A stretch of 32,000 bases of DNA from a cyanobacterium endosymbiont of Epithemia turgida isolate EtSB Lake Yunoko (GCF_000829235.1 NZ_AP012549.1:690001-722000); one strand, 5' to 3'; shown: positions 1 to 32,000, counted from the stretch's first letter. A program made the numbers and translations. Notes: generated from the letters alone by a model not told the origin.

Positions 1-690
1 TCGATGGACGCTGGTTGATTCTCGCTCGTTCAGCTTCTGTTCTGTCTATCTTTCTGACTGGGCAAAGGACATCGTTGTTACTGTCGACTCGAACCAAGAA
101 CTCCAAAGCAAGATTGTTTAAAATTTCGTTCCTCTTACTCACCATCAAGCAATTCCAGGCGTCTTGTCTACGACGAAATTTTTGGTATGCTTCAAGGAGA
201 AAAAGCTCAGTGCATGGCAGCTTCTGTGTTCGGTTCTATGCAACAAGTTGCAGGTTCAATGATCAGTCCCTACATTCATAAAGAAAAAGTGGTTAGTTCT
301 TATATCTTTCCTTCCAGTATTGGAATGTGAGCAATTCCTCCCGCTCCTAGTGTGAATGTATCTAGTATATTTGGTGTGGGGTTAGGAGTTCCTGTTTTTA
401 CACTGCCCGGGTATTCCCGTAAGTTCTTGTTATTAGCTGGTGCTGAGTTAATTGTTTATGGATCTACTAAACCTGATGCTACTGTTAGCATTGGTGGTTA
501 TTCTATTGGATTTAATTCTGATGGTATTTTCCGTTTCCAGATGTCTTGATAAGATGGTTTGATTGACTATCCTATAGTGGCTGTAGCTGTTAATGGAGAA
601 CAAACCCGTTCTATCCATATGAAGTTTAATCGTGAAACTCTTAAGTGTCATGCTAATTTTAAGCAAAAAGCAGTTTTGGAGTGTCTTTAA
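1..690 (+). pseudogene. Degraded gene for a DUF4912-like conserved cyanobacterial protein; 5' end lies outside the window
   Basis: The coding signal changes frame. Frame 2 is open over 2-118. Frame 1 carries ...RRLVYDEIFGMLQGEKAQ... and is cut by TGA at 328-330. It then reads AELIVYGSTKPDATVSIGGYSIGFNSDGIFRFQMS, hits an in-frame TGA-TAA at 547-552, and continues DGLIDYPIVAVAVNGEQTRSIHMKFNRET to a TAA at 688-690. The double stop splits one contiguous conserved module. The family name is from memory. Confidence 0.55.
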
Positions 691-882
691 ATCTAGTCTA
701 TAACTCGAGACAATAATTGCTTTTTTAAGCATTCTTAAAAGTTTGCCAACTTGATTGCTCCTGATGAGTTTGTCGGGAGCTTATTTTCTAATAATAGAGA
801 AATCCTTAATTTTTTAGAAAGAACGTTACCCCCCCCAAAAGTTCTATACTAGAATAGAATAAATATTAACTTTCTTTAAGAG

Positions 883-1074
883 ATGTTGAGCCCAATTTTA
901 ATATTTGATGTGGCTTTAGTCGCCTGGTCACTCCACTTAATGCAAGAAGCAATTGACCAACAAGAATTTTCCTTAATGCTAGCAGGAACTTTAGTAGCCA
1001 TGTCTGCTGCAGCAATGCTAGTAGTCTATTTTCTGATGGGCAAGTGTTTAAGCTATTTAATTCAACTCCATTAG
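883..1074 (+). CDS. Hypothetical small membrane protein (63 aa, two hydrophobic segments)
   Basis: ATG-initiated ORF with two hydrophobic stretches (PILIFDVALVAWSL and LAGTLVAMSAAAMLVVYFL). The Shine-Dalgarno context is poor and I recognise no family. The overlapping antisense ORF 866-1099 looks spurious. Confidence 0.3.
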   Translation: MLSPILIFDVALVAWSLHLMQEAIDQQEFSLMLAGTLVAMSAAAMLVVYFLMGKCLSYLIQLH

Positions 1075-1346
1075 GTTTCCTAAAAATAGTACAAATCAAT
1101 AAATCTGAATATAATCAACAACATACAAACAGAATAAAAAAATAAATATTTTTTCTTCTTCTATTATCATAAAAGTTGATTGTACAACATATATTTTATG
1201 TTTGATTTATAGTGTTGCACTTCAATTAAATAACTCAAAAAAATCTCTAAAATTTTCTCTAGTAGGGTGTAGTCGTTGAAATTAAATCTCAAGAATTTTG
1301 AATAGGACTTAAAATAATAATCTCCAATAATCAAGATTTAATCCTA

Positions 1347-3317
1347 ATGAAATTGCCCGATCAACGATGGCAAGTTGCTGTTCCTAATCCCAAACAAGTC
1401 GAGCAACTGATCAAAACAACAAAACTACCACCTTTAATTGCCCAAGTTATTATTAATCGGGGTATTGAGAGTTCCAATGCTATTGAAATCTACCTCAGTC
1501 CTGAAACTCAAACTCTTCCTTCACCTTTAGAGGAATTCCCTGATTTAGAGATCAGTGTAAAATTATTAAAAGATGCGATTACCACAGAGAAAAAAATCGT
1601 TATTTGTGGGGACTATGATGCTGATGGTATGACTAGTACTGCCTTATTATTGCGTGCTCTCACCCACTTGGGGGCTGATGTTCACTATAAAATTCCCAAT
1701 CGGATAAAAGATGGTTATGGCATTAATGAACATATTGTAGAAGCCTGTGCTAATGAAGGAGTAGGGTTGATTTTAACAGTTGACAATGGCATTACAGCTT
1801 GTAAACCGATTCAACGAGCTATAGAATTGGGGTTAAGTGTTATTATCACTGATCATCATAATCTCCCTAAAAAATTACCTCCAGCCGATGCGATTCTTAA
1901 TCCAAAATTACTTCGAGAAACTTCTCCTTATTGTGGATTAGCAGGAGTCGGAGTAGCATATATTTTGGCAGTAACAATAGCTCAAAGTTTTGGGTTACTC
2001 AAGGGTTTAGTAAATCCATTATTAGAATTATTCACATTAGGAACTATAGCAGATCTAGTCCCCCTTGTTGGTGTAAACCGACGTTGGTTAAAACGGGGTT
2101 TAAGGAAGCTTCCCCACTCAAAATTAGCAGGAGTTCAAGCGCTCATGCAGGTTACCGGAATCAGTGAAGAACAAAAACAACTTAAACCCGATGATATTGG
2201 CTTTCGATTAGGACCAAGAATTAACGCAGTAGGACGTATTGGCGAGCCTCAAATAGCGATTGAATTATTGACTACTGATGATCCTAAAATCGCATTAGAA
2301 AGAGCGATGCAATGTGAGCAAATTAACAACAAACGTAAGTCCATATGTGAAAAAATTGAATTAGAAGCTATTCATTTAATAGAAAATACTCCAATCCTTT
2401 GGAAACGTGACCGAGTTTTAGTGGTGATCAAATCTCAATGGCATCATGGGGTTATTGGCATTGTAGCTTCCCGTTTAGTAGAACGTTACGGAGTTCCTGT
2501 TTTTATCGGAACCTATGAAGAAAACTCTAGTAAAATTAGAGGGTCTGCACGAGGAATTAAAGAGTTTAATATAGTTGAAGGATTGGATTTTTGTCAAGAT
2601 ATTTTAGAAAAATATGGAGGACATAAAGCAGCAGGTGGCTTCAGTTTATCAGCTAGCAAATTAGAGGCTTTCAAACAAAGATTAAGCACCTTCGCCCATC
2701 AATGCTTAAAAACTCAACATCTCAAACCTTTAGTAATAATTGATGCTCAGGCTAATTTTAAAGAATTAACTACTAATTTATATCAGTCCATTGATCAACT
2801 TCAACCTTTGGGAATTGGCAATCCTTTCCCTGTTTTTTGGACTCCTAATATTTATATTGTTAAGCAAAGAATAGTAGGTAAAAATCATATTAAGTTAGAA
2901 ATTTCTCAAAATGATTATAATCAAACAGAGATATATGCAATTGCTTGGCGTTGGGGCGAGTATTTTCCCTTACCTAAACGAGTTGATATTGCTTATAAAC
3001 TAACAGAAAATGACTGGAATGGTAATTCAAAAATTGAGTTAGACATTGTAGGAATACGATTACCATCATATCCTTTGTCTGCTTCTGATCAGAAATCAGA
3101 AATCTTTCAATATCAAGGGCGAAACTATCGATGTAGTTTTTCTGCCACGGAGAAGAAATTAAAAATTAGAAATGATCAAGGAAAGGTGTTAGCCGTTAAA
3201 AGAGGAGAAAGACAAGGGTTTTTAGGAACAACGCGGGAAAATTTGCAGAACGTCGATATTACTCAGCAACGTTACTTTGATTTAATTAAAATAGCCATGG
3301 AGGTTTTAGGTTTATGA
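1347..3317 (+). CDS. recJ: Single-stranded-DNA-specific exonuclease RecJ
   Basis: 656-aa ORF carrying DHH-family motifs (VICGDYDADGMTSTA, LILTVDNGI, IITDHHNLP) and the DHHA1-type GGHKAAGG motif, followed by a C-terminal OB-like extension. Confidence 0.9.
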   Translation: MKLPDQRWQVAVPNPKQVEQLIKTTKLPPLIAQVIINRGIESSNAIEIYLSPETQTLPSPLEEFPDLEISVKLLKDAITTEKKIVICGDYDADGMTSTALLLRALTHLGADVHYKIPNRIKDGYGINEHIVEACANEGVGLILTVDNGITACKPIQRAIELGLSVIITDHHNLPKKLPPADAILNPKLLRETSPYCGLAGVGVAYILAVTIAQSFGLLKGLVNPLLELFTLGTIADLVPLVGVNRRWLKRGLRKLPHSKLAGVQALMQVTGISEEQKQLKPDDIGFRLGPRINAVGRIGEPQIAIELLTTDDPKIALERAMQCEQINNKRKSICEKIELEAIHLIENTPILWKRDRVLVVIKSQWHHGVIGIVASRLVERYGVPVFIGTYEENSSKIRGSARGIKEFNIVEGLDFCQDILEKYGGHKAAGGFSLSASKLEAFKQRLSTFAHQCLKTQHLKPLVIIDAQANFKELTTNLYQSIDQLQPLGIGNPFPVFWTPNIYIVKQRIVGKNHIKLEISQNDYNQTEIYAIAWRWGEYFPLPKRVDIAYKLTENDWNGNSKIELDIVGIRLPSYPLSASDQKSEIFQYQGRNYRCSFSATEKKLKIRNDQGKVLAVKRGERQGFLGTTRENLQNVDITQQRYFDLIKIAMEVLGL

Positions 3318-3790
3318 ACCTCAAATTTACCCTAATTTTTTGAGTGAGATAGCTTAATTATCATTTTTTATCATTCAAATTGTAGAAAAAATACACAGAT
3401 AACAAATTATTAATCAATAAAGTATATTTTAAAATTAGAATTTAGGTTTTGTATGAAAAAATAGTAAATAAATTTTAAAATATCAACTTACCGAATACTT
3501 ATAGATGATAGTAGGTTGTGTTTAAATCTACGTATAAGTCAATTTATTTAAAAATAAAAACATAAAGAAGTTTACTTTTGAGTGTAAGTCAAACCATCTG
3601 AATTAGAATTACTAATTAACTACTCTGATCAGTTGTTTTCTTAAGAATATTGCGACCCATTGAACTAGATAAAAAAGGTTGACAAACCCTATGACCATAT
3701 GGGTAAAAAATACGTAAAGCTATTGCGGTTCAGTCTTTTAAATCGGCTTTTAAATGGGTAAAGCTAACCGATTATCCTAGTGAATATACT

Positions 3791-4083
3791 ATGCTCAATA
3801 ATAATCTCACTGACGCTCTACAATCTCTTCCAAGTGTCATCCGGTATAAAATAATTTGAAAGCTCTAGCTGCATACAATAAGGCGTTAAAGGTTTGTACT
3901 CCTCAAAATACTCCTGTTGAATAGGCTCACACTATTTCAAATAAGGCAAACGTTTTATTGAATTTAGCTGATGATGTTGAGCATCCTGAGAAGGGCAATC
4001 AAAATAATATGATGGAAGCTAAAACTTACTATTTAAAAGCCCAAGGAGCATTTAGTCAATACGGACAATGGGAACGAGTATAA
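3791..4083 (+). pseudogene. TPR-repeat protein remnant
   Basis: Translation gives ALAAYNKALKVCTPQNTPVE*AHTISNKANVLLNLADDVEHPEKGNQNNMMEAKTYYLKAQGAFSQYGQWERV*. This is a TPR-like A-x-x-Y-x-x-A-L helix pattern with an in-frame TAG. The upstream ATG segment (3791-3858) sits in a different frame. Confidence 0.45.
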
Positions 4084-4162
4084 ATCATGAAAAACGCTTT
4101 ACAAAATATAGAGGTATAATTAGAAAGTTGGTAATTTAATTTCTCTAAGGAACGTAATTAAA

Positions 4163-4432
4163 ATGACTGAAATTTTAGGTGACTTAGGAACAGATACAAG
4201 CCTTCATAGTTTTTTTGTAAACCTAATGATGGGAGAGATAACCCTAGTAACAGGCTTACTCTGGTTAGTAGTAGCTGCTATCATTTCTGTTGTTGGTGGA
4301 GCTATGGGTGGAGTGTTATTGGCGGGGAAGGATATTGGCTATCAATTGTCTGCCATGTTGGGTAGTTTATTTGGTCCTGCTGGAGTTATTCCAGCTGTTG
4401 CCGTTGGACTTATTTTGTTGAGATTAATGTAG
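4163..4432 (+). CDS. Hypothetical glycine-rich small membrane protein (89 aa)
   Basis: Intact ATG ORF with an AAGGA upstream. It has two Gly/Ala-rich hydrophobic helices (LLWLVVAAIISVVGGAMGGVLLAG and LFGPAGVIPAVAVGLILL). The next ORF starts 12 nt downstream. Confidence 0.55.
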   Translation: MTEILGDLGTDTSLHSFFVNLMMGEITLVTGLLWLVVAAIISVVGGAMGGVLLAGKDIGYQLSAMLGSLFGPAGVIPAVAVGLILLRLM

Positions 4433-4444
4433 GAGTTACAGATA

Positions 4445-4666
4445 ATGTTAAAACTTACCTGGTATAGTGCGAAATTGTTTTTTAAAGGAAAATTAATTCG
4501 TGACACTGGATATTTTTACAAACAATACGCTTTAGGGTTTTTTATCGGACTATTGTTATTAGTCGGATTGTCTAAAATGGAGGTTAATTTAGCTTTGGCT
4601 ATTACAGTGTCTAGTCTAGTGACAGGGATGCTTATGCCTTTTTTGTTTAAAGATATAAAAATGTAA
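4445..4666 (+). CDS. Hypothetical small membrane protein (73 aa)
   Basis: Intact ATG ORF preceded by AGGAG about 10 nt upstream. It has two hydrophobic helices and appears to be co-transcribed with 4163-4432. Confidence 0.5.
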   Translation: MLKLTWYSAKLFFKGKLIRDTGYFYKQYALGFFIGLLLLVGLSKMEVNLALAITVSSLVTGMLMPFLFKDIKM

Positions 4667-4933: not shown

Positions 4934-5239
4934 ATGGATATATTGCGCCATGCAGTTGAGGGTAAAATTGTTTATAGATTATTACGTTATAATCAATTAA
5001 TTAAACCTCTAACTCCGCTCTTAGAAGAACGTATTCGAAAAACATTATAAGCTGTTCAATTAAGAGCAAAAAGTCATAATGAAAATATAGAATTGGTGGC
5101 GATTGAACTACCTAATAGTGTCAAAGTTCAATTGATTCGGACTTGTAAGAATTGTGCAACTTCTAGCCTAACCCCAAAACAGGAGTTAAACAGGTGATAA
5201 AAACTTATTGTCGTAAAATCACGTCCTATCAGTGAATAA
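4934..5239 (+). pseudogene. nfu: NifU C-terminal-domain (Nfu-type Fe-S scaffold) pseudogene
   Basis: A single frame reads ...LTPLLEERIRKTL*AVQLRAKSHNENIELVAIELPNSVKVQLIRTCKNCATSSLTPKQELNR**KLIVVKSRPISE*. This aligns with the Nfu pattern (GGNVELVEI.G..VKLRLQGACGSCPSSTMTLK.GIERKL) and the CxxC motif is retained as CKNC. The in-frame stops are at 5048-5050 (TAA), 5195-5197 (TGA) and 5198-5200 (TAA). Confidence 0.65.
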
Positions 5240-5316
5240 CTCTACAATAGTTAATTGTTAAGAATAACAGCTGTTTAAGTGGTTCATTTTCTTCATTCTA
5301 AGATAGAGGTTAGACA

Positions 5317-5619
5317 TTTTGAACAACTATTGACGAGATATTCAATCGAAGAATTTCACCGCTGTAAATTTAAGGATTAACGTTGATTTGAACCAGACAA
5401 CATGAGCAAGTAATTGTGCATAGTAATAGTTGTAATCATGTAACGATGCCCTTAGAAATTAAAAAAGTTGAAAATGGTATTTTAACCTGCTTATATCATG
5501 AATTTAAATATCGCTTAGCTAAAGAACAATGTTTAACGGCACTAGAAATATCTCTGGAAGCTTATTCCGTTAAACAATATGGATATCGCGTGTTAGTTCA
5601 AGTTTCTTCGGAGAAATGA
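5317..5619 (+). pseudogene. Small Rieske [2Fe-2S]-domain protein, N-terminally disrupted
   Basis: ORF 5416-5619 carries an exact Rieske motif, C-N-H-x16-C-L-Y-H (SCNHVTMPLEIKKVENGILTCLYH), but only about 10 residues precede it before a TGA at 5389-5391. Remnants of the N-terminal strand (FTAVNLRINVDLNQTT*ASNCA) lie upstream in another frame. A local near-duplication, agtaattgtgcat / agtaatagttgtaatcat, sits at the junction. Confidence 0.5.
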
Positions 5620-5634
5620 CATAAGCTGTTCAGA

Positions 5635-6085
5635 TTAAACTTTCTTGTGTTTGCTGACAAATTTTTCTTTAACAAATATATTCTTGGGGTCATAAATAAT
5701 AATATACTACCAAATAAGTTCCCCCTACTGCGACAAGAATTTATCTCCGAGTAAATTTAAAATATGAGGGTATTTGTTGGCTAATTCCGTATTTAAAATT
5801 TCATCATGGGTCAGATTCTAAGGATTAACCAAATTTCCCTGTCCATCGATACAAACCATTAATATCTACAAACAGAGTATCAGAAAGATAATAATTTAAG
5901 ACATAAAGCCTTTCGTCCTACTTCGTTTTATTCATCTCAAATTAAAAATCTCTTATACCTATAAGTATTTTAAGTGAAAAATATAATGTATGAAGTTTTA
6001 GATAAGTTACGTTAACGACATCGTGGTCTACTCTACCGAAAATTCGTAACTATTCCGATCCCCTTCTCTTTATCATAAAGATGAT
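5635..6085 (-). pseudogene. Amidohydrolase (dihydroorotase-like) C-terminal remnant
   Basis: The reverse strand reads in one frame MVCIDGQGNLVNP*NLTHDEILNTELANKYPHILNLLGDKFLSQ*GELIW*YIIIYDPKNIFVKEKFVSKHKKV*. This resembles the dihydroorotase C-terminus (..NPA.ilgl..G.L..G..ADi.i.D......v....f.SK.KN). A further upstream piece, KGIGIVTNF, may correspond to the I..I.TDH motif. There are three in-frame stops and the N-terminal two-thirds of the gene is absent. The assignment is weak. Confidence 0.3.
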
Positions 6086-6110
6086 TGGAAAAAAGATTTA
6101 AGGAGCAACG

Positions 6111-6377
6111 ATGACGCAACCACCAAAACTACATACAGTAAACTATTCGTATAATTAGCAAAACAGTTCACTGTTCCAACGTCTTTAAGAAATAGTGGCT
6201 ATTGTCGAAACCCTAGGTTTTGATTGTAAAGACAATACTTATGACTTGCTGTCTTTATTATGCATTTTAGAAACTTTACACCGAAAAATCCGATCTAACC
6301 TTTTCGAACCTTCTTTGCCCAATACTCGTAATAAATTATATGAAGTTTTAAAAACCATTAAAGAAAAGGGAGGTTAG
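6111..6377 (+). pseudogene. Unidentified small gene interrupted by two in-frame stop codons
   Basis: A strong AAGGAG lies 5 nt upstream of the ATG at 6111. The frame reads MTQPPKLHTVNYSYN*(TAG 6156-6158)QNSSLFQRL*(TAA 6186-6188)EIVAIVETLGFDCKDNTYDLLSLLCILETLHRKIRSNLFEPSLPNTRNKLYEVLKTIKEKGG*. The ORF-track entry 6195-6377 is the tail of this frame. Confidence 0.5.
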
Positions 6378-6586
6378 CCTTATATTTAACGAATAAAACT
6401 GCAAAAATTCCCTAATTATTGTCCCAATTCGACCTCTTCCTAAATTTTGAAAATGGCGAGAGAAAGACTCTAAAATTAGATATTTGACTTCCACTGAGTG
6501 ACTTATTTTTCCTTGTCTTGGCAAAGAAGTCTTTACAAGGGACAATAGATTGCAGTTACTATATCAATTAAATTTAAGTCTCTTTT

Positions 6587-7324
6587 GTGGATAAAATTCG
6601 TACTGTTTCGGATACTAAACGGGATTTCTACACCCATCACGCCCGACCCATAAACTCTGTTTACCGCCGTTTTATTGAAGAGTTGTTGGTAGAGATACAC
6701 CTGCTCTCAGTTAATGTAGATTTTCGTTACGATCCTATTTATGCTCTAGGGGTTGTCACTTCTTTTGAGCGTTTTGTTCAAGGATATCAACCCCAAAAAG
6801 ACAAAGACTCTATTTTTTCAGCGTTGTGTTATTCAGTTGGAGGCAATGCTGAACAATATCTACAAGAAGCTCAAACTCTTTTAGCTCAGGTTAAAGGAAT
6901 GTCAGTGTCAGATTTCAGGGAAATTCTTAAAGCTGCTAGTTCACAAGTTCCTGACAATAGAACATTGTGTGAAATTTTTCAAGCAATTGCTCAAAATTCT
7001 CGGTTTAAATATAGTCGTCTGTTTACGGTAGGTTTATATACTCTAATAATGGAACTTGCTCCTGATTTAGTCACAAATCAGGAGCAAAGCAACCTAATTT
7101 TTAGTCAAATAGCTGAAGTGCTTCATTTATCTCCAGAAAAACTCCAAAAAGACTTAGATCTCTATCGTAGTAATCTCGATAAAATAGAACAGTTACTTGC
7201 TGTTGTTGAAGATGCCCTCAAAGCAGAACAAAAAAAACAAAAAAAAGTAACACAACAAACACAGACAACTAATTTTTCCGTTAATTCAGACAATGATTCT
7301 AAGGATGATTTGAATAACTCATAA
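6587..7324 (+). CDS. thf1: Thylakoid formation protein Thf1 (Psb29)
   Basis: 245-aa ORF with a GTG start. The N-terminus, RTVSDTKRDFYTHHARPINSVYRRFIEELLVEIHLLSVNVDFRYDPIYALGVVTSFERFVQGYQP, and the DLDLYRSNLDKIEQ motif match the cyanobacterial Thf1 I remember almost residue for residue. Confidence 0.88.
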   Translation: MDKIRTVSDTKRDFYTHHARPINSVYRRFIEELLVEIHLLSVNVDFRYDPIYALGVVTSFERFVQGYQPQKDKDSIFSALCYSVGGNAEQYLQEAQTLLAQVKGMSVSDFREILKAASSQVPDNRTLCEIFQAIAQNSRFKYSRLFTVGLYTLIMELAPDLVTNQEQSNLIFSQIAEVLHLSPEKLQKDLDLYRSNLDKIEQLLAVVEDALKAEQKKQKKVTQQTQTTNFSVNSDNDSKDDLNNS

Positions 7325-8099
7325 TGGATTTGTGCCAAAGTTTAGCTGGATTTAACTGAGAAAAAGGGAAAAGGGAATAGTTTAGAGAATTTGATAATCT
7401 TATTATCATCATATTATTGATATAAAACTCAAGTTATCAGTTTGGACTCTTTACTTTCTTCTAATCCCTAATTCTTGATTTATAATCCCCACTATAGCTA
7501 AAATTTAAAGACAAGAAAAAAGATTAACTTTCATAAAAGTTACTGATATATTTATCACTTTGTTGACGTTCTATATTAGTTACTAAATTAGCCTAAATTT
7601 CTTATATAATTAGGAGATCTTGATTAAGATTTTGGGATCTTTTGTCTAATTTTTAATAGAGATTCATAAGATAGAATACTCAAGAGATTTTGTAGATACA
7701 ATTTATATTTTATTTAATAATTTATGGATATTATCTATGGAAGTAACGGGTATTATTTTTTTATTTAAAACTGCTATGTTTTAGTTTGTTGATAAGTAGA
7801 TTTTTTAGAAAATACAAAAATAGACACTATATTTATAATAGTCAGTCAAAATCATAGTCTCGACTTTAAGGATTAAATAAATATTCTTAGCAAAATTTAT
7901 CTCCCATTGAGATTATTCTCAATAATCAGCAAACAATTGTTAATTTTTTTAAAAAAAAGTGCCGACTAGACTGAAGCTGACCCTAGCTGACAGTCAACTT
8001 CATTACAATAAACAATGATTACGCGACCAGCCCGAAGACTGAAAATCTAATCTTTTGGATCGAAGGGTGTGAGGAGACTAATTAAAGATTGTATTACTC

Positions 8100-10175: not shown

Positions 10176-10256
10176 TTGTAAGATGATACCCTACCTGTCC
10201 TAAAAGTTTTTGAGTTTCTTAATAAAAAAAAATTTATCTTTTTTTTGAATAATTTT

Positions 10257-11214: not shown

Positions 11215-11263
11215 TTATTATTAGACTTTGTATTTATTGCAAAAATACAAAGTCTAATAATAA
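11215..11263. repeat. Perfect 21-bp stem hairpin
   Basis: ttattattagactttgtattt (11215-11235) is the exact reverse complement of aaatacaaagtctaataataa (11243-11263). The loop is the 7 nt attgcaa. Confidence 0.85.
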
Positions 11264-11291
11264 CTTTTTATATTTCAGATAAATTCTATCG

Positions 11292-25129: not shown

Positions 25130-25311
25130 AATATGACATTATTTGATTAATTTTCGGTAAAACAAAGCTGTTGGTATCAACGCCACCAAGACTGCTGTTA
25201 AAGCTGACGATGATAGGATAGATAATTTTCTATTTGTCAACACTAGCAACAGTTCCTACATCTTTCGGGATTGCCTAGCTCTCCTAAACCTAAATACTAT
25301 TGGATAGCAAG
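25130..25311 (-). pseudogene. psaE: Photosystem I subunit IV (PsaE) pseudogene
   Basis: The reverse strand reads ..[40 protein letters not shown]... against PsaE ..YWF.[35 protein letters not shown].DEL. There is an in-frame TAG at 25230-25232. The N-terminal part (AIQ*YLG.. / VFRFRRA..) is frameshifted with further stops, and no ATG remains at the expected start near 25311. Confidence 0.8.
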
Positions 25312-26009
25312 ATCTTGATGGTCAAAATTTTAAATTGTATTGCAAATATGACCATGTTACCTCGACAAAATAAGTGAAATGTCACAAAACCCTTCAGACA
25401 GGAGAGTTTTCTCTAGCTATAAACTAGGTTTTTGGCTGATCTTTATAAGTTAGAGGATAATGTGGTAGCCAATACTAACCCAATAAATTGTTCAAGTTGT
25501 AAGTTCAGTAAACTTTGGATTCTCAAATAGTTTTAAGTAAGTTACTATGTCCTATGTTAGTTAGAATGGATAGGATTTTAAATCCCAAAAACCATAAACA
25601 CTAGAGTTAGCAGGAGTGCTCATAAGGCATGAATAGATTCGGCCCAAAATAATTAACATTAGACTGAATTCGGACTATAGGTGAGGAGGGAGTGTACGGT
25701 TAATTTTTTACTATCATAAATATTTTTTATTTATCAAAATTTTTCTATCTCCTTACCTCCAAAAGTTTTTCCTCAAAAATATTTATCAAGAAAAAAACAG
25801 TTTTATACTTAATAAAGTTAATTGGAAGACTCGGCAATCCTAGCATAATATCAGCAGTTAAGAATAATTTAAAAGAGTTATGCTGCTCCTAAGAATCTCT
25901 CATCTCTAGTGAAGGGAGTGTCAAAGCGGGTACCTTTTTATGATATCATTGCTGACGGTTCGCTATTGGCTTTATGGATTAATTCTAATAGCTTCACTTG
26001 TCTAACACT

Positions 26010-26432
26010 ATGCCCGTGATTGATCATCAGACCCCGACGGCTAAAACCGTTTCCCTCTCAGTTGATCCCATGAGAGATTACTATCAATTGCAACGCACTT
26101 TGTTGTTGTTGAGTTTATCTCTAACGGTGATTATTTTTATCTGTGTCTGGACTGTATATTCCCTAAATACTGCTCTTAACTACCTAGTAGGAGCTTTTGT
26201 CGGCATTGTTTATTTAAAACTATTAGCCGGGGACGTAGCACAAGTTGGTTTAGTCAAAAAACGGATAGGAACTAGAGGGATGGGATTATTTGTGACTTTA
26301 ATCGTTGTGGCTAGTCAATGGCAGAAAATGCATATTCTCCCAGTTTTTCTGGGATTTTTGACTTATAAAGCCGCCATAATTGCCTATATGCTCACAAGTA
26401 TTCTAATACCAGAATCTGAGCCAAGGCATTAG
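26010..26432 (+). CDS. atp1: ATP synthase protein I (atp1, operon leader gene)
   Basis: A small four-helix hydrophobic protein located directly upstream of the a subunit, as in cyanobacterial atp operons. I prefer the ATG at 26010 to the TTG at 25998 used by the track. Confidence 0.7.
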   Translation: MPVIDHQTPTAKTVSLSVDPMRDYYQLQRTLLLLSLSLTVIIFICVWTVYSLNTALNYLVGAFVGIVYLKLLAGDVAQVGLVKKRIGTRGMGLFVTLIVVASQWQKMHILPVFLGFLTYKAAIIAYMLTSILIPESEPRH

Positions 26433-26488
26433 GGCATCGAGAAATTTAACCATTCTCGTATTTTGATTAAGTAAATAAATCTCACCGA

Positions 26489-27229
26489 ATGACAATGTTA
26501 GATGGTTTGAGTTTTGTACAAACATTTCCTCTTGCTTCATTAGAAGTCGGTCAGCATTGGTACTGGGAAATTGGTAACTACCGGGTACATGGACAAGTAT
26601 TCATGACCTCTTGGTTCGTAATTAGCCTCTTGGTAATCGCATCTTTAGCCGCCACTCAAAATGTGCAACGCATCCCCAGTGGAATGCAAAATTTTATGGA
26701 GTATGTCCTAGAATTTTTGCGAGACTTGGCTAAAAATCAATTGGGAGAGAAGGAATATCGGACTTGGTTACCTTTTATTGGGACCTTGTTTTTATTTATC
26801 TTTGTCTCTAACTGGTCAGGTGCGTTAATTCCTTGGGCGCTAATTAAACTACCAGAAGGAGAATTAGCTGCTCCTACCAACGACATCAATACCACTGTTG
26901 CCTTAGCATTACTAACTTCTCTAGCGTACTTCTATGCTGGTCTAAGCAAGAAAGGATTGAGCTATTTTTCTCACTATATAGAGCCAATTCCTGTTCTCTT
27001 GCCAATTAAAATCTTAGAAGATTTTACCAAGCCTTTATCGCTAAGCTTCCGTTTGTTTGGAAACATCCTAGCTGATGAATTAGTGGTGGCCGTATTAGTC
27101 TTCTTAGTGCCTTTATTCATTCCCCTACCCATTATGGCCTTGGGGTTGTTCACTAGTGCGATTCAAGCCTTAGTATTTGCTACCTTAGCGGGAGCTTACA
27201 TTCATGAGGCGATCGAAGAAGAACATTAA
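26489..27229 (+). CDS. atpI: F0 ATP synthase subunit a
   Basis: 246-aa ORF with [21 protein letters not shown] near the N-terminus and the essential Arg motif [13 protein letters not shown]. The gene is named atpI in cyanobacteria and atpB in E. coli. Confidence 0.93.
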
Positions 27230-27379
27230 TCCTTATAAGGGATGAAGCAATGATCGAGCGTCGTAAATTGAATATTAGGATCTGTTATTGAAATATGTCC
27301 AAAACATAGGACAATATCAGATGAGTTCATTTTTACAATTCAACATCGAGAATTGCTGAACTCTTCAAGCATATAGGGG

Positions 27380-27409
27380 TTGACTAGTAGGGCTTTTTTC
27401 CTCGAGAAT
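27380..27409 (+). promoter_or_regulatory. Sigma70-like promoter candidate inside the atpI-atpH spacer
   Basis: TTGACT (27380-27385), an 18-nt spacer, then GAGAAT (27404-27409), lying 150 nt upstream of atpH. This rests on sequence resemblance only. Confidence 0.25.
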
Positions 27410-27503
27410 CAGAGAGAACTCCGCCGTACGACGATGGAGCCGGTTCTGACCTTCGGTCAATAACTATTCATTGCTTGGGAACGTCAACCTCCATGGTTGT
27501 TAA

Positions 27504-27803
<300 letters not shown>

Positions 27804-27811
27804 AAAGTTTT

Positions 27812-27989
27812 GAAACAGTAGAGACGCACGTTGTGTGAAGGCAAAAAGCGAAAAGAGACAATACAGTCCTTACTACTTTGACTAATGTTAAGTGTCAACT
27901 CAGATAATATCGGGTGTAGTAAATAAAAAAAAGTTTGTATTGACTTGGCCACTTGCGACTTCAATCATTGTCTCGTCTCTACTGATTTC
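27812..27989 (+). repeat. Nested long-range inverted repeat in the atpH-atpG spacer
   Basis: Outer helix: gaaa-cagtagagacg (27812-27826) pairs with cgtctctactg-a-tttc (27974-27989), giving 15 bp with a 1-nt bulge. Inner helix: gagacaat (27855-27862) pairs with attgtctc (27967-27974). The structure begins 9 nt after the atpH stop codon. Confidence 0.7.
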
Positions 27990-28068
27990 TCTAGCACACT
28001 AAGCAAAGATTCGTTAGCCGCTTAGATCTTTTTTGTTTTGACTGAAAAATCAATGGGAACCGCAAAAA

Positions 28069-28500
28069 ATGTTTGATTTTGATGCAACTATGCCTTTAAT
28101 GGCTTTGCAATTTGTTCTCTTGGCAGTTATCCTCAATGGAATTTTTTACAAACCCTTGAATAAAGCATTAGATGAGCGAGCAGATTATATTCGTCAGAAA
28201 GAGACTGACGAAAAGAAGCGTTTAGCTAAAGCTAAGGAATTGTCCCTACAATATGAAGCGCATCTTGCTGACGCGCGTAAGCGGTCTCAAGAGATAATCG
28301 CACACGCTCAGGCTGAAGCACAAAAAATGACAGCAAAAACTTTAGCTAATGCTCAACAAAAAGCTCAAGAGGAAAAAGAGAAAGCCGCCCAAGAAATAAC
28401 CCAACAACGCCAAGAAGCACTGGTTGTTCTAGAACAACAGGTTGATACCCTCAGCCGTCAAATTCTAGAAAAACTTCTAGGGACTGAATTGGTAAATTAA
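28069..28500 (+). CDS. atpG: F0 ATP synthase subunit b'
   Basis: 143-aa [43 protein letters not shown] is followed by a long charged coiled coil. Its position between c and b is typical of subunit b' (cyanobacterial atpG). Confidence 0.9.
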
Positions 28501-28537
28501 ATCTACCATCGATTGAGTTTTAACTAGCAAAATACGT

Positions 28538-29074
28538 ATGATCGATTCTTTTTTTATATTAGCTACAGAAGCCCATGAAGCTGCTAAAAGCTGGTTCGGC
28601 TTAGATTCTAATCTTCTGGAAACGAACCTTCTTAATCTTGCTATTCTTATTGGGGTGTTGGTATTCTACGGCAGCAAAGTTTTGAAAACCGTCTTAAATG
28701 AGCGGCAACTGCAGATTGCTGATGCTATTCAAGAAGCTGAAGAGCGCCAACGCAAAGCAGCTACTGCTTTAGAAAAGGAACAGCAGAAATTAACGCAAGC
28801 TCAAGCTGAAGCTGAACGAATGTATCAAAGGGCTAAAGACAGAGCTGCTGCCCTAGCTGACGAAATTACAGAAAAAAGTAGGCAAGATATGGAGCGTCTT
28901 AAAGAGACAGCTGCAGCTGACCTTAGTAGGGAGCAAGAACGAGTTATTGCTCAATTGAACAAACAAATTGTTCAAATAGCCCTCAATAAAGCGGAAAGCC
29001 AACTCAAAGAACAGGTCAATGAGGATATACAACAGCTCCTAATTGACCGTAGTATCGCTCAATTAGGAGGTTAA
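28538..29074 (+). CDS. atpF: F0 ATP synthase subunit b
   Basis: 178-aa ORF with a single N-terminal transmembrane helix (LLNLAILIGVLVFYG) followed by a long Ala/Glu/Gln-rich helix. Confidence 0.9.
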   Translation: MIDSFFILATEAHEAAKSWFGLDSNLLETNLLNLAILIGVLVFYGSKVLKTVLNERQLQIADAIQEAEERQRKAATALEKEQQKLTQAQAEAERMYQRAKDRAAALADEITEKSRQDMERLKETAAADLSREQERVIAQLNKQIVQIALNKAESQLKEQVNEDIQQLLIDRSIAQLGG

Positions 29075-29077
29075 TTA

Positions 29078-29635
29078 ATGAAAGGTTCCCTCATTAGTAC
29101 TGCGATTGCCGAACCTTACGCTCAGGCCTTGATGTCAGTGGCTTTGAGCCACGATCTTGCCGATGCCTTTGGGGAAGAATGCCGGTCTTTAGTCACCTTA
29201 CTAGAAAAGTCCCCTGATTTGGAAGCATTTATTGCTTCTCCAGTGATCAAAGAAATAGATAAAAAAACTGTTTTGGGAAAAATCATGGGAGAAGGTACTA
29301 ATTTGTATCTACTAAATTTTTTGATGTTGTTGATAGATAAACGGCGGATTATCTTTCTTGAAAAAATTTGTCGGCAGTATCTTACCCTATTGCGGAAGTT
29401 AACCAATACCGTTTTAGCCGAAGTTACTTCAGCCCACAAATTAAGCAGCGAACAAAGTGAGTCTATAGCCAACAAAATTGAAGAACTTACTGGTGCGCAA
29501 GGCGTGGAAATCAAGACTAGAATTGATCCCAACTTGATTGGGGGTATCACTATTAAAGTAGGGTCTCAAGTCTTTGATGCCAGCCTTCGAGGACAACTAC
29601 GCCGTGTCAGTCTTAGCCTAGGCGGTATTGCTTAG
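29078..29635 (+). CDS. atpD: F1 ATP synthase subunit delta (OSCP)
   Basis: 185-aa ORF with a GGAGG Shine-Dalgarno sequence. It contains [13 protein letters not shown] at the N-terminus and [23 protein letters not shown] at the C-terminus. The gene is named atpD in cyanobacteria and atpH in E. coli. Confidence 0.9.
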
Positions 29636-29683
29636 GTTATTTGTGTTTCATTCTATTTATTCGACTTCTAGAACAACTTAACT

Positions 29684-31195
29684 ATGTTTAGTATCAGACC
29701 CGACGAAATTAGCAGCATTATTCGCCAGCAAATTGAATCCTACGATCAAACTGTAACGGTTTCTAATGTAGGAACAGTGCTTCAAGTAGGAGATGGAACT
29801 GCCCGTATTTATGGCTTAGAACAAGCCATGGCTGGAGAACTTCTTGAATTTGAAGATGGAACTATCGGAATCGCTCTCAACCTTGAAGAAGATAACGTTG
29901 GGGCCGTATTAATGGGAACCGGTCTCGATATTCAAGAAGGAAGTACCGTTAAAGCCACCGGAAAAATTGCACAAGTTCCCGTAGGGGAAGCAATGATAGG
30001 ACGGGTGGTTGATTCCCTAGGTCGCCCTATTGATGGTAAAGGGGATATAAACACTTCTGAAACTCGTCTAATCGAATCAATGGCCCCTGGGATTATTGCT
30101 CGTAAATCAGTTTGTGAGCCCATGCAAACAGGGATTACAGCTATTGATGCGATGATTCCTGTGGGACGGGGACAACGAGAATTGATTATCGGTGATCGTA
30201 AAACTGGAAAAACGGCAATTGCGATTGATAGCATCATTAATCAGAAGTCCGAAGACGTAATCTGTGTCTATGTAGCAATTGGACAAAAAGCGTCTACTGT
30301 CGCCCAGGTAATAAGAACCCTCGAAGACAATGGTGCGATGGACTACACCATAGTCGTTGCCGCTAACGCAAATGATCCAGCTACATTACAGTATCTTGCC
30401 CCCTATACAGGAGCCACCCTCGCTGAATACTTTATGTATAGGGGCAAAGCTACCCTGGTCATTTACGATGACCTCTCCAAACAAGCTCAAGCTTACCGTC
30501 AGTTATCTTTGCTACTAAGACGTCCTCCTGGTCGGGAAGCTTATCCTGGTGATGTGTTCTATATCCACTCTCGTTTATTAGAACGTGCGGCAAAACTTAG
30601 CGATAAGCTCGGTGGTGGTAGTATGACAGCGTTACCCGTGATTGAAACTCAAGCAGGTGACGTTTCTGCTTACATTCCTACTAACGTAATTTCTATTACT
30701 GACGGACAGATTTTCCTTTCCAGCGATCTGTTTAACTCAGGTTTTCGTCCCGCTATTAACGCAGGGATTTCAGTAAGCAGGGTAGGATCTGCGGCTCAGA
30801 CCAAGGCCATGAAAAAGGTTGCTGGTAAATTGAAGCTAGAATTGGCACAATTTGCTGAACTAGAAGCCTTCTCCCAGTTTGCCTCTGACTTAGATGCCAC
30901 CACTCAGTCTCAACTGTCACGGGGTCAACGGTTACGTCAAGTATTGAAGCAGCCTGAAAATTCCCCCTTAGCAGTGTGGGAACAGGTAGCAATTTCCTAT
31001 GCAGGGTTAAATGGTTATCTTGATGAAATTGCTGTGGAGAAGGTGACTGAATTTACTATGGGACTACGGAACTATATTAAAACCAGTAAAGCCAAATTTA
31101 CTGAGATCGTTGGAACTGAAAAACAACTTACCGATGAAGCAGAAAGCCTCCTCAAAGAAGCTATCAAGGAACATAAACAGACCTTTGCCGCGTAA
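29684..31195 (+). CDS. atpA: F1 ATP synthase subunit alpha
   Basis: 503-aa ORF with the P-loop GDRKTGKT and the segments [47 protein letters not shown] and [31 protein letters not shown]. Confidence 0.97.
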
Positions 31196-31300
31196 TTGAC
31201 CATAAATAAGTCAGTGGTTAGTCATTTCCTGACGAACGAGAAGGAGGGCTAACCACCCATGACCCCTTATGAATAATTAATCCCACAAAAAATAAAAAAT

Positions 31301-32000
31301 ATGCCTAACCTCAAAGCTATCCGTGATCGGATTAAATCAGTCAAAAATACAAAAAAAATTACTGAGGCTATGCGTCTGGTAGCCGCCGCTAAGGTTCGCC
31401 GAGCTCAAGAACAGGTAATGTCTACTCGTCCCTTTGCTGATAATTTAGCCAATGTTCTTTATAATTTGCTCAACCGTCTTAAGTATGAGGATGTGAGTTT
31501 ATCTCTATTGCAACAAAGACAGGTTAAAACCGTGGCTGTAGTTGTTGTCTCAGGTGATCGGGGGTTATGTGGTGGATACAACTCTTATGTGATTCGCCGT
31601 GCAGAACAACGCCAAAAAGAATTAGAAGCTCAAGGACTTGATTATTGTTTCATCACCATTGGAAACAAAGCGACTCAATATTTTTCTCGTCGCAAGGTCC
31701 CCATTCTAAGCAAGTACACGGGATTAAATCAAATTCCTACAGCCAATGAAGCTATATCTATTGCTGACGAGTTGCTGTCTCTATTTTTATCAGAAACAGT
31801 TGACCGAGTAGAGTTAATTTACACTCGTTTCGTTTCTGTTATAAGTTCTCGTCCGGTGATTCAAACTTTGCTACCTTTGACTCTTCAGGGGTTGGAAGTT
31901 GAAGATGATGAAATGTTCCGCTTAATTACCCGCGAAGGGAGATTAGGCGTAGAAAGGGAAACGATTACTCAAGAGATCGAGATCTTCCCTCAAGATATGA
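31301..32000 (+). CDS. atpC: F1 ATP synthase subunit gamma, truncated by the window end
   Basis: My own translation from ATG 31301 gives [49 protein letters not shown]...[14 protein letters not shown]... The frame stays open to the window edge (233 codons). It is absent from the ORF track because it has no stop in the window. Confidence 0.93.

What the first reader, a model, noticed from the sequence alone, without database searches (positions are those of the whole stretch)
1..32000. Window-wide signature of a genome caught in mid-reduction, probably a non-photosynthetic endosymbiotic cyanobacterium
By my coordinate arithmetic only about 51% of the window is intact CDS and about 15% is recognisable pseudogene. 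The rest is AT-rich spacer in blocks of 0.5-2.2 kb. Free-living bacteria are typically 85-90% coding. The survivors are DNA repair genes (recJ, mutM), tRNA modification (miaB), pentose-phosphate and one-carbon metabolism (rpiA, gcvH), and a complete ATP synthase operon. The casualties include two photosystem subunits, Fe-S and redox proteins, and TPR proteins. I saw no IS elements, so the decay is mutational rather than transposon-driven. Gene content, including the COP23-like protein and the cyanobacterial atp operon order, points to a unicellular diazotrophic Cyanothece/Crocosphaera-type lineage. Obligate endosymbionts of rhopalodiacean diatoms (spheroid bodies) are known from that lineage and are reported to be non-photosynthetic. 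That identification is inference.
Basis: inference. Interest (0 to 1): 0.75.

Follow-up and report, generated by a model that had tools for sequence, protein, structure and literature searches.

The report
Decaying genome of diatom nitrogen-fixing endosymbiont

Summary
The observation and the interpretation are both correct, and both are already published.

Three proteins encoded in the window (RecJ, RpiA, AtpA) are letter-for-letter identical to BAP17291, BAP17303 and BAP17314. These belong to "cyanobacterium endosymbiont of Epithemia turgida" (EtSB), on a 2,794,318-bp contig.

My recount of the window:
- Intact coding sequence: 51.2% (23 genes).
- Recognisable pseudogene: 17.3% (18 remnants).
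- Unassignable AT-rich DNA: 31.5%.
- GC falls in steps across these three classes: 39.5%, 33.4%, 28.4%.

Loci from the free-living relatives SU2, Rippkaea PCC 8801 and Crocosphaera XPORK-15E are 79-88% coding. In SU2 the window's "empty" spacers are occupied by intact psbA, psaE, two nblA genes, a pilB-like ATPase, a TPR gene, DUF3370, DUF8210 and DUF6391.

No IS element is present, and none of the 18 published EtSB IS remnants matches the window.

Four pseudogenes are specific to EtSB and intact in other spheroid-body lineages. Three spacers are about 2.0-2.9 kb shorter than in three sister lineages. Decay and deletion are therefore still going on.

Low coding density, many pseudogenes and no active transposons in spheroid bodies are already described (Nakayama & Inagaki 2017; Abresch et al. 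2024 and 2026). The finding is a correct rediscovery, not a novelty.

The parts
2..687 (+). Pseudogene of a Rho_N/DUF4912 protein. The 5' end lies outside the window. It has one frameshift and three in-frame stops.
   Evidence: tblastn with the intact 431-aa RgSB orthologue gives E=9e-77 over aa 193-430. Stops are visible in the translation. The gene is called intact in RgSB, the EcSB-like genome and EpiScrs1 (one search agrees except for one probable N-terminal stop artefact in EcSB).
883..1074 (+). Intact 63-aa conserved hypothetical membrane protein.
   Evidence: 95% identical to the RgSB orthologue and intact in all spheroid bodies sampled.
1347..3317 (+). recJ, intact.
   Evidence: NCBIfam TIGR00644, 5.5e-150. 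Exact match to BAP17291.1.
3701..4128 (+). Pseudogene remnant of a 322-aa TPR_12-like protein. Only the C-terminal 44% is recognisable. The stretch 3318-3700 is its decayed N-terminal part (GC 23.5%).
   Evidence: tblastn E=3e-54 with 4 stops. Intact in RgSB, EcSB and EpiScrs1.
4163..4666 (+). Two small intact genes: an asr0689-family protein (4163-4432) and a 73-aa membrane protein (4445-4666).
   Evidence: NCBIfam NF052670, 1.2e-32. Both are conserved in all spheroid bodies sampled.
5096..5616 (+). Fe-S protein remnants: a frameshifted NifU-like pseudogene (5096-5298) and a Rieske [2Fe-2S] domain fragment (5392-5616).
   Evidence: tblastn with RgSB NifU73 gives E=7.5e-12 in two frames. Pfam Rieske 1.1e-5 and NifU 1.1e-4.
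5708..6437 (.). Remnants of two small genes that are called intact in RgSB: a 56-aa ORF (5708-5859, minus strand, frameshifted) and a 122-aa ORF (6111-6437, plus strand, 4 in-frame stops).
6587..7324 (+). thf1/psb29 (PSII biogenesis protein Psp29), intact.
   Evidence: NCBIfam TIGR03060, 6.9e-78. Intact orthologues in all spheroid-body lineages sampled.
7650..7820 (+). Remnant of a 103-aa gene that is intact in SU2.
   Evidence: tblastn E=3e-8 with 3 stops. Dead in all spheroid bodies sampled.
8100..8702 (+). Intact 200-aa hypothetical protein.
   Evidence: 87% identical to RgSB and 62% to SU2.
8984..9211 (+). DUF8210 pseudogene with 2 in-frame stops.
   Evidence: tblastn with the SU2 protein gives E=5e-23. 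Translation.
9270..10175 (-). Inositol-monophosphatase-family (CysQ-like) gene, intact.
   Evidence: Pfam PF00459, 3e-55.
10176..10702 (-). TPR-protein pseudogene (orthologue 174-179 aa) with 2 in-frame stops and a C-terminal frameshift. This loss is specific to EtSB.
   Evidence: tblastn E=3e-79. Pfam TPR_1 1.4e-8. Intact in RgSB, EcSB, R. gibba SB, EpiScrs1 and SU2.
10792..11891 (+). Wreck of a 767-aa PilB/GspE-type ATPase gene. Only aa 1-182 are traceable (10792-11175). The rest is 716 bp of unrecognisable DNA at GC 22%.
   Evidence: In SU2 the intact gene sits between the TPR gene and gcvH. tblastn gives E=1e-8 to 3e-11. NCBIfam PilB/GspE hit on the SU2 protein. GC.
11995..12390 (+). gcvH, intact.
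   Evidence: NCBIfam, 3.4e-47.
12520..13530 (-). psbA (PSII D1) pseudogene: three frames, at least 12 stops, 37-60% identity to SU2 psbA.
   Evidence: PDB phmmer 3e-45 to D1. Pfam Photo_RC 9.5e-12. tblastn 1e-60. An intact 360-aa psbA occupies the same position in SU2.
13826..15007 (-). SLH-domain protein, intact.
   Evidence: Pfam SLH 2.4e-17. 87% identical to RgSB.
15008..16244 (.). Unrecognisable AT-rich block (GC about 21%) with no ORFs. The SLH-Rbp interval that contains it is 1.8-2.1 kb longer in RgSB, EcSB and R. gibba SB, where the extra DNA is ORF-free at GC 15-20%.
16245..16617 (-). Two nblA (phycobilisome degradation protein) pseudogenes: 16245-16412 and 16480-16617.
   Evidence: tblastn with the SU2 NblA proteins. 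Those SU2 proteins hit Pfam NblA at 6e-18 and 6e-17. The window copies carry 8 and 3 stops. Pfam on the window remnant gives 4.8e-5.
17198..18510 (+). RRM-type RNA-binding protein (17198-17677) and rpiA (17800-18510), both intact.
   Evidence: RpiA is an exact match to BAP17303.1.
18779..19478 (-). Remnants of a 116-aa gene (18779-18943) and of DUF3370 (19190-19478; only the C-terminal 20% of a 449-aa protein remains).
   Evidence: tblastn with SU2 ORFs. Pfam DUF3370 2.5e-196 on the SU2 protein. DUF3370 is still intact in EcSB.
19723..21063 (-). miaB, intact.
   Evidence: NCBIfam TIGR01574, 1e-141. The orthologue in the E. adnata SB locus L081 is called at 446 aa, and I placed the start at 21063 to match.
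21645..22340 (-). COP23-family protein, intact. It is 98-99% identical among spheroid bodies.
   Evidence: Pfam PF14218, 8e-9. Identities.
22730..23392 (+). DUF2301 membrane protein, intact.
   Evidence: Pfam, 4.2e-58.
24105..24953 (-). mutM (fpg), intact.
   Evidence: NCBIfam NF010551, 1.2e-134.
25134..25496 (-). psaE (PSI subunit IV) pseudogene (25134-25262) and faint DUF6391 traces (25340-25496).
   Evidence: Both SU2 and PCC 8801 have DUF6391-psaE-mutM in this order. psaE: tblastn 8e-10 and Pfam PsaE 9.3e-10. DUF6391: tblastn hits at chance level only (E = 0.12-0.6), though collinear with the expected gene order.
26010..32000 (+). atp1 gene cluster, all intact: atpI-like (26010-26432), a (26489-27229), c (27558-27803), b' (28069-28500), b (28538-29074), delta (29078-29635), alpha (29684-31195), and gamma (31301 onward, cut by the window end).
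   Evidence: AtpA is an exact match to BAP17314.1. SU2 has the same order and similar internal gaps.

Best explanation
The window is a stretch of the chromosome of the spheroid body (diazoplast) of the diatom Epithemia turgida. This is an obligate, vertically inherited, non-photosynthetic cyanobacterial endosymbiont derived from a Rippkaea/SU2-like unicellular diazotroph.

Shown here:
- Genes inherited from that ancestor, still intact in SU2 at the same positions, have been knocked out by point mutations and small frameshifts. They include photosystem, phycobilisome-turnover and pilus/secretion-ATPase genes, a DUF3370 gene and several small genes of unknown function. The reading that they became dispensable inside the host is inference.
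- Dead genes drift towards AT. GC runs 39.5% in genes, 33.4% in pseudogenes and 28.4% in unassigned DNA, and reaches about 21% in the most AT-rich unrecognisable block.
- Spacers diverge between spheroid-body lineages a little faster than third codon positions in four of five lineage comparisons, and about equally in the fifth (EpiScrs1).
- The debris is removed by deletions of hundreds to thousands of bases. Three EtSB spacers are about 2.0-2.9 kb shorter than in three sister lineages. One 536-bp indel separates EtSB from a 98-99% identical relative.
- The process is asynchronous between lineages. Four genes are dead only in EtSB. DUF3370 survives only in EcSB and NifU only in RgSB.
- No IS element or repeat is involved in this window.

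Inferred, not shown here:
- Relaxed selection together with drift in a bottlenecked, host-restricted population, plus an AT-biased mutation spectrum, drives the decay.
- Deletion is slow because there are no mobile-element repeats to recombine.
For: Identity: exact protein matches to EtSB; 100% nucleotide identity to independent contigs; RpiA tree.

Density: 51.2% intact, 17.3% pseudogene, 31.5% unassigned, against 79-88% coding in SU2, PCC 8801 and Crocosphaera loci.

Synteny: in SU2 the order is thf1 - 103aa - (tnpB) - 215aa - 48aa - DUF8210 - inositol-P - TPR - pilB - gcvH - psbA - SLH. SU2 also has the atp operon - DUF6391 - psaE - mutM, and nblA - nblA - rbp - rpiA - 116aa - DUF3370 - miaB. 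The window keeps these orders, with the listed genes broken.

Lineage-specific states. Interval shrinkage. GC gradient. Spacer identity 0.74-0.82 against third-codon-position identity 0.73-0.89. No IS.

Literature: EtSB is 2.79 Mb, 33.4% GC, with 1,720 CDS, 225 pseudogenes and 18 degenerate IS remnants, and has lost photosynthesis (PMC5638926). Spheroid bodies have 0.58-0.68 genes/kb, no intact transposases and high synteny, and SU2 is the closest free-living relative (PMC11131595; bioRxiv 10.64898/2026.03.19.712447).
Against: Nothing contradicts the identification.

Limits:
- About 31% of the window cannot be assigned to any ancestral gene, so 'decayed gene' is inferred there from position and composition only. 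Part of it is ordinary promoter, 5'UTR or intergenic DNA. For example, the gaps inside the atp operon are equally long in SU2.
- For the spacers miaB-COP23, DUF2301-mutM and 4667-5095 I found no ancestral occupant. SU2 and PCC 8801 are not syntenic there.
- The drivers (drift, mutation bias) are not measured here.
- The window by itself cannot show that photosynthesis is lost genome-wide, because psbA is usually multi-copy. That rests on the published genome.
Confidence: 0.97

Rival explanations
1. The low density is local. The window would be an unusually gene-poor island, such as a decaying prophage, a horizontally acquired AT-rich island or a rearrangement hotspot, inside an otherwise normal free-living cyanobacterial genome.
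For: Local GC dips to about 20% at 15-16 kb. SU2 shows synteny breaks at three places relative to the window.
Against: The genes are core housekeeping genes, in ancestral order and with no phage or mobile content. Other spheroid-body loci fetched around the window are also only 48-65% coding. Published genome-wide figures give 0.60-0.62 genes/kb and 225 pseudogenes.
Confidence: 0.01
2. The apparent pseudogenes are sequencing or assembly errors (homopolymer frameshifts) in a draft of a normal genome.
For: AT-rich homopolymer-rich sequence is prone to indel errors.
Against: Independent contigs from SRR29904087 are 100% identical over 19.8 kb, lesions included. Most lesions are in-frame stop codons and large deletions, not single-base indels. 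The shared pseudogenes (psbA, nblA, pilB and, where the locus covers it, psaE) are also broken, with different lesions, in the other independently sequenced spheroid-body genomes sampled. Pseudogene amino-acid identity has dropped to 37-60%, which errors cannot produce.
Confidence: 0.005
3. The sequence belongs to a different reduced cyanobacterial endosymbiont or organelle: UCYN-A/nitroplast, a Paulinella chromatophore, or a Richelia-type diatom symbiont.
For: All are reduced cyanobacteria. UCYN-A is also a Crocosphaera-clade diazotroph lacking PSII.
Against: UCYN-A4 RpiA is only 71% identical, against 91-94% for spheroid bodies and 100% for EtSB. The window sits in the spheroid-body + SU2 clade.
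Confidence: 0.005
4. Genome reduction here is, or was, driven by IS-element proliferation and recombination, as in the classical model for young endosymbionts. The IS copies would since have been erased.
For: Free-living relatives carry many transposases: at least 75 in PCC 8801 and 61 in SU2 (PMC11131595). SU2 has a tnpB inside the syntenic block. EtSB retains 18 degenerate IS fragments elsewhere. Deletions of about 2.0-2.9 kb exist.
Against: There is no IS remnant, repeat or tnpB trace in the window or at the edges of the shrunken intervals. Gene order is collinear among all spheroid-body lineages across the window. Dead genes lie in place as point-mutated wrecks rather than having been excised. 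Published work reaches the same conclusion.
Confidence: 0.03

Closest known systems
Spheroid body of Epithemia turgida (EtSB) genome; Nakayama et al. 2014 is the original report as cited in PMC5638926, and the accession AP012549 is from my memory
   Same: It is the same molecule. RecJ, RpiA and AtpA are exact matches on a 2,794,318-bp contig. The published features are all visible in the window: about 33% GC, 1,720 CDS, 225 pseudogenes, loss of PSI/PSII genes and only degenerate IS remnants.
   Different: Nothing differs. I add only a per-gene pseudogene map for this 32 kb and its comparison with SU2 and sister lineages.
Other spheroid-body (diazoplast) genomes: R. gibberula RgSB, E. clementina EcSB, R. 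gibba 17Bon1, E. adnata 19Bon2, E. pelagica EpiScrs1
   Same: Collinear gene order across the window. The same ancestral pseudogenes are present (psbA, psaE, nblA x2, pilB, DUF8210). Coding density is 48-65%.
   Different: EtSB has additionally lost DUF4912, two TPR genes and a 122-aa gene. It has also shed about 2.0-2.9 kb from each of three spacers. This matches the published statement that pseudogenisation is more advanced in EtSB than in RgSB (PMC5638926).
Unicellular cyanobacterium SU2 and Rippkaea orientalis PCC 8801 (closest free-living relatives)
   Same: Orthologous genes at 70-89% amino-acid identity, with local synteny in three blocks.
   Different: These loci are 79-88% coding and about 40-41.5% GC. 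They have intact photosystem, nblA and pilB genes, and transposases are present.
UCYN-A (Candidatus Atelocyanobacterium thalassa, nitroplast)
   Same: Crocosphaera-clade diazotrophic endosymbiont that has lost PSII (from my own knowledge).
   Different: It is a much later stage of reduction: about 1.4 Mb, compact and with few pseudogenes (my knowledge, not tested). RpiA is only 71% identical.
Pseudogene-rich, low-density reductive genomes such as Mycobacterium leprae and Sodalis glossinidius (from my own knowledge)
   Same: About 50% coding density, with many in-place pseudogenes caught before deletion.
   Different: Sodalis-type young symbionts are rich in IS elements, whereas this window and spheroid bodies in general are not. 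The lineage and biology are also different.

Membership tests
Epithemia turgida spheroid-body (EtSB) chromosome | Sequence identity to the deposited EtSB genome | tested here: met
   RecJ, RpiA and AtpA are exact matches to BAP17291.1, BAP17303.1 and BAP17314.1 on a 2,794,318-bp contig. Thf1 and MutM are 100% identical to EtSB entries.
Rhopalodiacean spheroid bodies (diazoplasts) | Phylogenetic placement in the spheroid-body clade, sister to SU2/Rippkaea within Aphanothecaceae | tested here: met
   RpiA NJ tree: window + E. adnata SB at 100% bootstrap, spheroid bodies + SU2 at 82.5%. Identity ranking. This is single-gene evidence only; the genome-wide tree is published.
Rhopalodiacean spheroid bodies (diazoplasts) | Loss of photosynthesis genes (PSI, PSII, phycobilisome) | tested here: met
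   Within the window, psbA, psaE and two nblA genes are pseudogenes. Genome-wide loss is taken from PMC5638926.
Rhopalodiacean spheroid bodies (diazoplasts) | Retention of the nif cluster and N2 fixation | not testable with these tools
   No nif genes lie in this window, and their absence here says nothing either way.
Rhopalodiacean spheroid bodies (diazoplasts) | Low coding density with many in-place pseudogenes | tested here: met
   51.2% intact coding, 17.3% pseudogene and 0.72 genes/kb, against 79-88% coding in free-living relatives.
Rhopalodiacean spheroid bodies (diazoplasts) | No active mobile elements; high synteny among lineages | tested here: met
   No repeats, no tnpB trace and no match to the 18 published IS remnants. 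The window is collinear with five other spheroid-body genomes.
IS-driven early-stage endosymbiont reduction (Sodalis/SOPE type) | Proliferated IS elements and frequent rearrangements | tested here: not met
UCYN-A / nitroplast | Close sequence identity and a compact genome with few pseudogenes | tested here: not met
   RpiA is 71% identical. The window is half non-coding.

The most novel reading that the evidence does not exclude
Some of the apparently dead DNA may not be dead. About 20 non-coding blocks of 41-130 nt are at least 90% identical in three or more spheroid-body lineages, above the 74-82% spacer average. Examples are 22341-22470 upstream of the very highly expressed COP23, 11892-11994 next to a hairpin upstream of gcvH, and 16894-16971 upstream of rbp.

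Some of these could be regulatory RNAs or control elements specific to the symbiosis, rather than ordinary promoters, 5'UTRs or recently dead coding sequence.

Separately, the four EtSB-only pseudogenes and the dated deletions could calibrate the rate of gene death and DNA loss in an IS-free genome.
Probability: 0.07. Interest if true: 0.4.

Novelty: already known. Interest (0 to 1): 0.12.

Why it matters
Spheroid bodies are a leading model for how a free-living bacterium turns into an organelle. They are caught at the stage when pseudogenes peak and coding density is lowest, and they have no mobile elements.

This window shows that process gene by gene:
- ancestral losses shared by all lineages (psbA, psaE, nblA, pilB);
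- fresh losses unique to EtSB;
- stepwise AT-drift;
- kilobase-scale deletions.

The genome, its non-photosynthetic nature, its low coding density and the lack of transposons are all published. It is not a discovery.

Tried and rejected
1. Pfam scan of concatenated six-frame spacer fragments. Only the Rieske domain surfaced. Concatenation costs too much sensitivity: the psbA fragments were missed. I therefore did not scan the second half (about 12.8-28 kb) this way.

2. PDB phmmer on three concatenated packs. The pack covering 8.8-16.9 kb found psbA and weak TPR hits, which served as a positive control. The packs covering 1-8.8 kb and 16.7-28 kb found nothing, so psaE was missed. It surfaced only through synteny with SU2.

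3. Search for heme oxygenase, HemN, PsbQ and other SU2 or PCC 8801 neighbours of mutM in the DUF2301-mutM spacer. No remnants; that junction is not syntenic.

4. SU2 IS605 tnpB against the window. No trace.

5. NCBIfam on the small conserved ORFs and on the Rieske fragment. No names obtained.

6. Rfam at gathering threshold on the whole window and at E<=1 on 11600-12050. Nothing credible.

7. tRNA scan. None found.

8. The original 2014 EtSB paper could not be opened, either by DOI or by a PMC id recalled from memory.

9. An attempt to get the window's coordinates in the EtSB record returned only a Logan contig. I therefore tested the published IS remnants by sequence instead of by position. 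The held table truncates each IS sequence at about 400 nt.

10. I considered and rejected four rivals: assembly error, a local island, a different endosymbiont, and IS-driven loss.

Full report
**1. What the window is.**
An exact-sequence look-up shows that three window proteins are identical to entries from "cyanobacterium endosymbiont of Epithemia turgida". AtpA (29684-31192), RecJ (1347-3314) and RpiA (17800-18507) match BAP17314.1, BAP17291.1 and BAP17303.1, all on a 2,794,318-bp contig. Thf1 and MutM also have 100%-identical EtSB entries.

Contigs assembled independently from run SRR29904087 are 100% identical to the window over 14,443 bp and 5,317 bp. The E. adnata 19Bon2 spheroid-body genome (CP076462) is 98.3-98.9% identical (the strain name comes from PMC11131595).

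RpiA identity falls in this order: other spheroid bodies (SBs) 91-94%, free-living SU2 86%, Crocosphaera 80-81%, UCYN-A4 71%. In an RpiA neighbour-joining tree the window pairs with the E. adnata SB at 100% bootstrap, inside an SB + SU2 clade at 82.5%.

That inference is correct.

**2. Checking the numbers.**
The window contains 23 intact genes:
- the 63-aa ORF, recJ, an asr0689-family gene, a 73-aa ORF, thf1/psb29 and a 200-aa ORF;
- an inositol-phosphatase-family gene, gcvH, an SLH-domain protein and an RRM-type RNA-binding protein;
- rpiA, miaB, COP23, DUF2301 and mutM;
- atpI-a-c-b'-b-delta-alpha and a truncated gamma.

Together the genes cover 16,387 bp, which is 51.2% of the window or 0.72 genes/kb. 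Recognisable pseudogene remnants cover 5,529 bp (17.3%). The remaining 31.5% cannot be assigned.

Spacers come in blocks of 0.3-2.2 kb at GC 25-33%. GC falls from 39.5% in genes to 33.4% in pseudogenes and 28.4% in unassigned DNA. The most decayed stretches reach about 21-22%. No tRNA gene or Rfam family is present.

**3. What used to be in the spacers.**
[quoted passage not shown] It is syntenic with the window in three blocks.

Block A. SU2 carries thf1 - 103aa - IS605 tnpB - 215aa - 48aa - DUF8210 - inositol-P - TPR(179 aa) - pilB-like ATPase (767 aa) - gcvH - psbA (360 aa) - SLH. The window keeps thf1, the 200-aa gene, inositol-P, gcvH and SLH. The 103-aa gene, DUF8210, the TPR gene, the first 182 codons of pilB and psbA survive only as wrecks with stops and frameshifts. 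From the start of thf1 to the far end of psbA, this block measures 10,265 bp in SU2 and 6,944 bp in the window.

Block B. SU2 carries nblA - nblA - rbp - rpiA - 116aa - DUF3370 (449 aa) - miaB. In the window both nblA genes, the 116-aa gene and DUF3370 are remnants.

Block C. SU2 carries the atp operon - DUF6391 - psaE - mutM. Rippkaea PCC 8801 has the same DUF6391 - psaE - mutM order. The window's 1-kb spacer between mutM and atpI holds a psaE wreck (tblastn 8e-10; Pfam PsaE 9.3e-10). It also holds chance-level DUF6391 traces (tblastn E = 0.12-0.6) that are collinear with the expected gene order.

Upstream of thf1, SU2 is not syntenic, but other SB genomes still have intact genes there. These are a Rho_N/DUF4912 protein, a 322-aa TPR_12-like protein, a NifU-like protein and a 122-aa protein. 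All four are broken in the window. A Rieske-domain fragment lies at 5392-5616.

The psbA wreck is the strongest single hit: PDB phmmer 3e-45 to PSII D1 in six stretches.

The loci fetched from free-living relatives are 79-88% coding (SU2 79% and 82%, PCC 8801 88%, Crocosphaera XPORK-15E 79%). SB loci are 48-65% coding.

**4. Is the decay still in progress?**
A gene-by-lineage table (gene calls) shows three classes.
- Dead in every SB whose fetched locus covers the gene: psbA, psaE, nblA1, nblA2, pilB, DUF8210, the 103-aa gene and the 116-aa gene. These are old losses, at 33-77% identity, with many stops in the longer ones.
- Dead only in EtSB and intact in RgSB, EcSB and EpiScrs1: DUF4912, the TPR_12-like gene, the 122-aa gene and the 174-aa TPR gene. 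These retain 63-78% identity to the intact RgSB orthologues and carry only 2-4 stops.
- Patchy: NifU is intact only in RgSB, and DUF3370 only in EcSB.

Inter-gene distances show shrinkage specific to EtSB:
- recJ-thf1 is 3.3 kb, against 5.5-5.6 kb in sister lineages.
- SLH-rbp is 2.2 kb, against 4.0-4.3 kb.
- rpiA-miaB is 1.2 kb, against 2.9-4.1 kb.

The marine EpiScrs1 SB has shrunk independently. At the SLH-rbp interval, the extra DNA in sister lineages is ORF-free at GC 15-20%. Even between EtSB and the 98-99% identical E. adnata SB there is a 536-bp indel inside the rpiA-miaB spacer.

Spacer nucleotide identity between SB lineages (0.74-0.82) is lower than third-codon-position identity in four of the five lineage comparisons. 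In the fifth, EpiScrs1, the two are about equal (0.735 against 0.732). This is what unconstrained DNA would show.

Non-coding blocks that are at least 90% identical in three or more lineages fall into two groups. Some are recently dead coding sequence. Others lie directly upstream of genes, as expected for promoters or 5'UTRs.

**5. IS elements.**
The window has no repeat family of note. The SU2 tnpB leaves no trace. None of the 18 degenerate IS remnants listed for EtSB in Table S4 of PMC5638926 matches the window beyond chance 13-21-mers. The held sequences are truncated at about 400 nt. Gene order is collinear with five other SB genomes across the window.

**6. Comparison with what is known.**
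All of this is published.
- PMC5638926 gives EtSB as 2,794,318 bp, 33.4% GC, 1,720 CDS and 225 pseudogenes. It lists 18 IS elements, none transposable. It reports that photosystem, chlorophyll and RuBisCO genes are lost or pseudogenised, and that pseudogenisation is more advanced in EtSB than in RgSB.
- PMC11131595 reports very low coding density (about 0.60 genes/kb), pseudogene content more than twice that of PCC 8801, and no mobile elements. [quoted passage not shown] It also reports the COP23 homologue as the most highly expressed SB gene.
- The 2026 preprint 10.64898/2026.03.19.712447 extends this to 22 more SB genomes. It finds 0.58-0.68 genes/kb, no intact transposases and high synteny.

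The mechanism I give is the standard one. The steps shown here are the lesions, the AT-drift, the lineage-specific timing, the deletions and the absence of IS elements. The drivers are inferred: relaxed selection, drift in a bottlenecked vertically inherited population, and AT-biased mutation.

**7. Corrections and caveats.**
- The "complete ATP synthase operon" is the atp1 cluster only. The gamma gene is cut by the window end. No beta or epsilon gene lies in the window or within about 4 kb downstream in the near-identical E. adnata SB locus. From textbook knowledge, in cyanobacteria these two form a separate operon.
- Part of the unassigned 31% is ordinary intergenic DNA. The gaps inside the atp operon are just as long in SU2.
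- For several spacers I found no former occupant.
- The window alone cannot prove that photosynthesis is lost genome-wide.

**8. Verdict.**

Noticed in passing
window 6587-7324 (+): thf1/psb29, annotated as 'photosystem II biogenesis protein Psp29', is intact in EtSB and in every other spheroid-body lineage sampled (75-84% identity). Yet psbA and psaE are dead and the organism is reported to be non-photosynthetic. This suggests a role independent of PSII, such as thylakoid maintenance or FtsH regulation; that suggestion is my speculation.
   Followed up: partly
window 21645-22340 (-) and 22341-22470: COP23 is 98-99% identical in amino acids among spheroid-body lineages, against 82-94% for its neighbours. 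A 130-nt non-coding block directly upstream is at least 90% identical in three or more lineages. PMC11131595 reports the COP23 homologue as the most highly expressed gene of the R. gibba spheroid body, with unknown function.
   Followed up: partly
window 18549-19084: A 536-bp segment of the rpiA-miaB spacer, including the 116-aa gene remnant, is present in EtSB but absent from the E. adnata 19Bon2 spheroid body. That genome is otherwise 98.3-98.9% identical. This is a very recent indel in dead DNA.
   Followed up: partly
window 15008-16244; L001 5300-7650, L002 5550-7650, L003 5350-7750: An ORF-free, extremely AT-rich block sits between the SLH gene and the nblA remnants. GC is about 21% in EtSB. 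The SLH-rbp interval is about 2 kb longer in three sister lineages, where the block is GC 15-20%, and shorter again in EpiScrs1. No ancestral gene could be assigned to it.
   Followed up: partly
window 11852-11894 and 11892-11994: A 20-bp-stem hairpin (90% complementary, 3-nt loop) lies about 100 nt upstream of gcvH. It adjoins a 103-nt block that is at least 90% identical in three or more spheroid-body lineages. No Rfam family matches. It could be the terminator of the dead pilB gene or a gcvH leader element.
   Followed up: partly
L091 11470-12618 (SU2): SU2 carries an IS605-type tnpB between thf1 and the 215-aa gene. No spheroid-body genome shows any trace at that site. This fits either a SU2-specific insertion or early loss of mobile elements in spheroid bodies.
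   Followed up: no
window 883-1074, 4445-4666, 8100-8702: Three small or medium ORFs with no Pfam or NCBIfam family (63, 73 and 200 aa) are intact and conserved across all spheroid-body lineages sampled (68-97% identity; the 200-aa ORF is also 62% identical in SU2). This is so despite heavy decay around them, so they are probably real genes under selection.
   Followed up: partly
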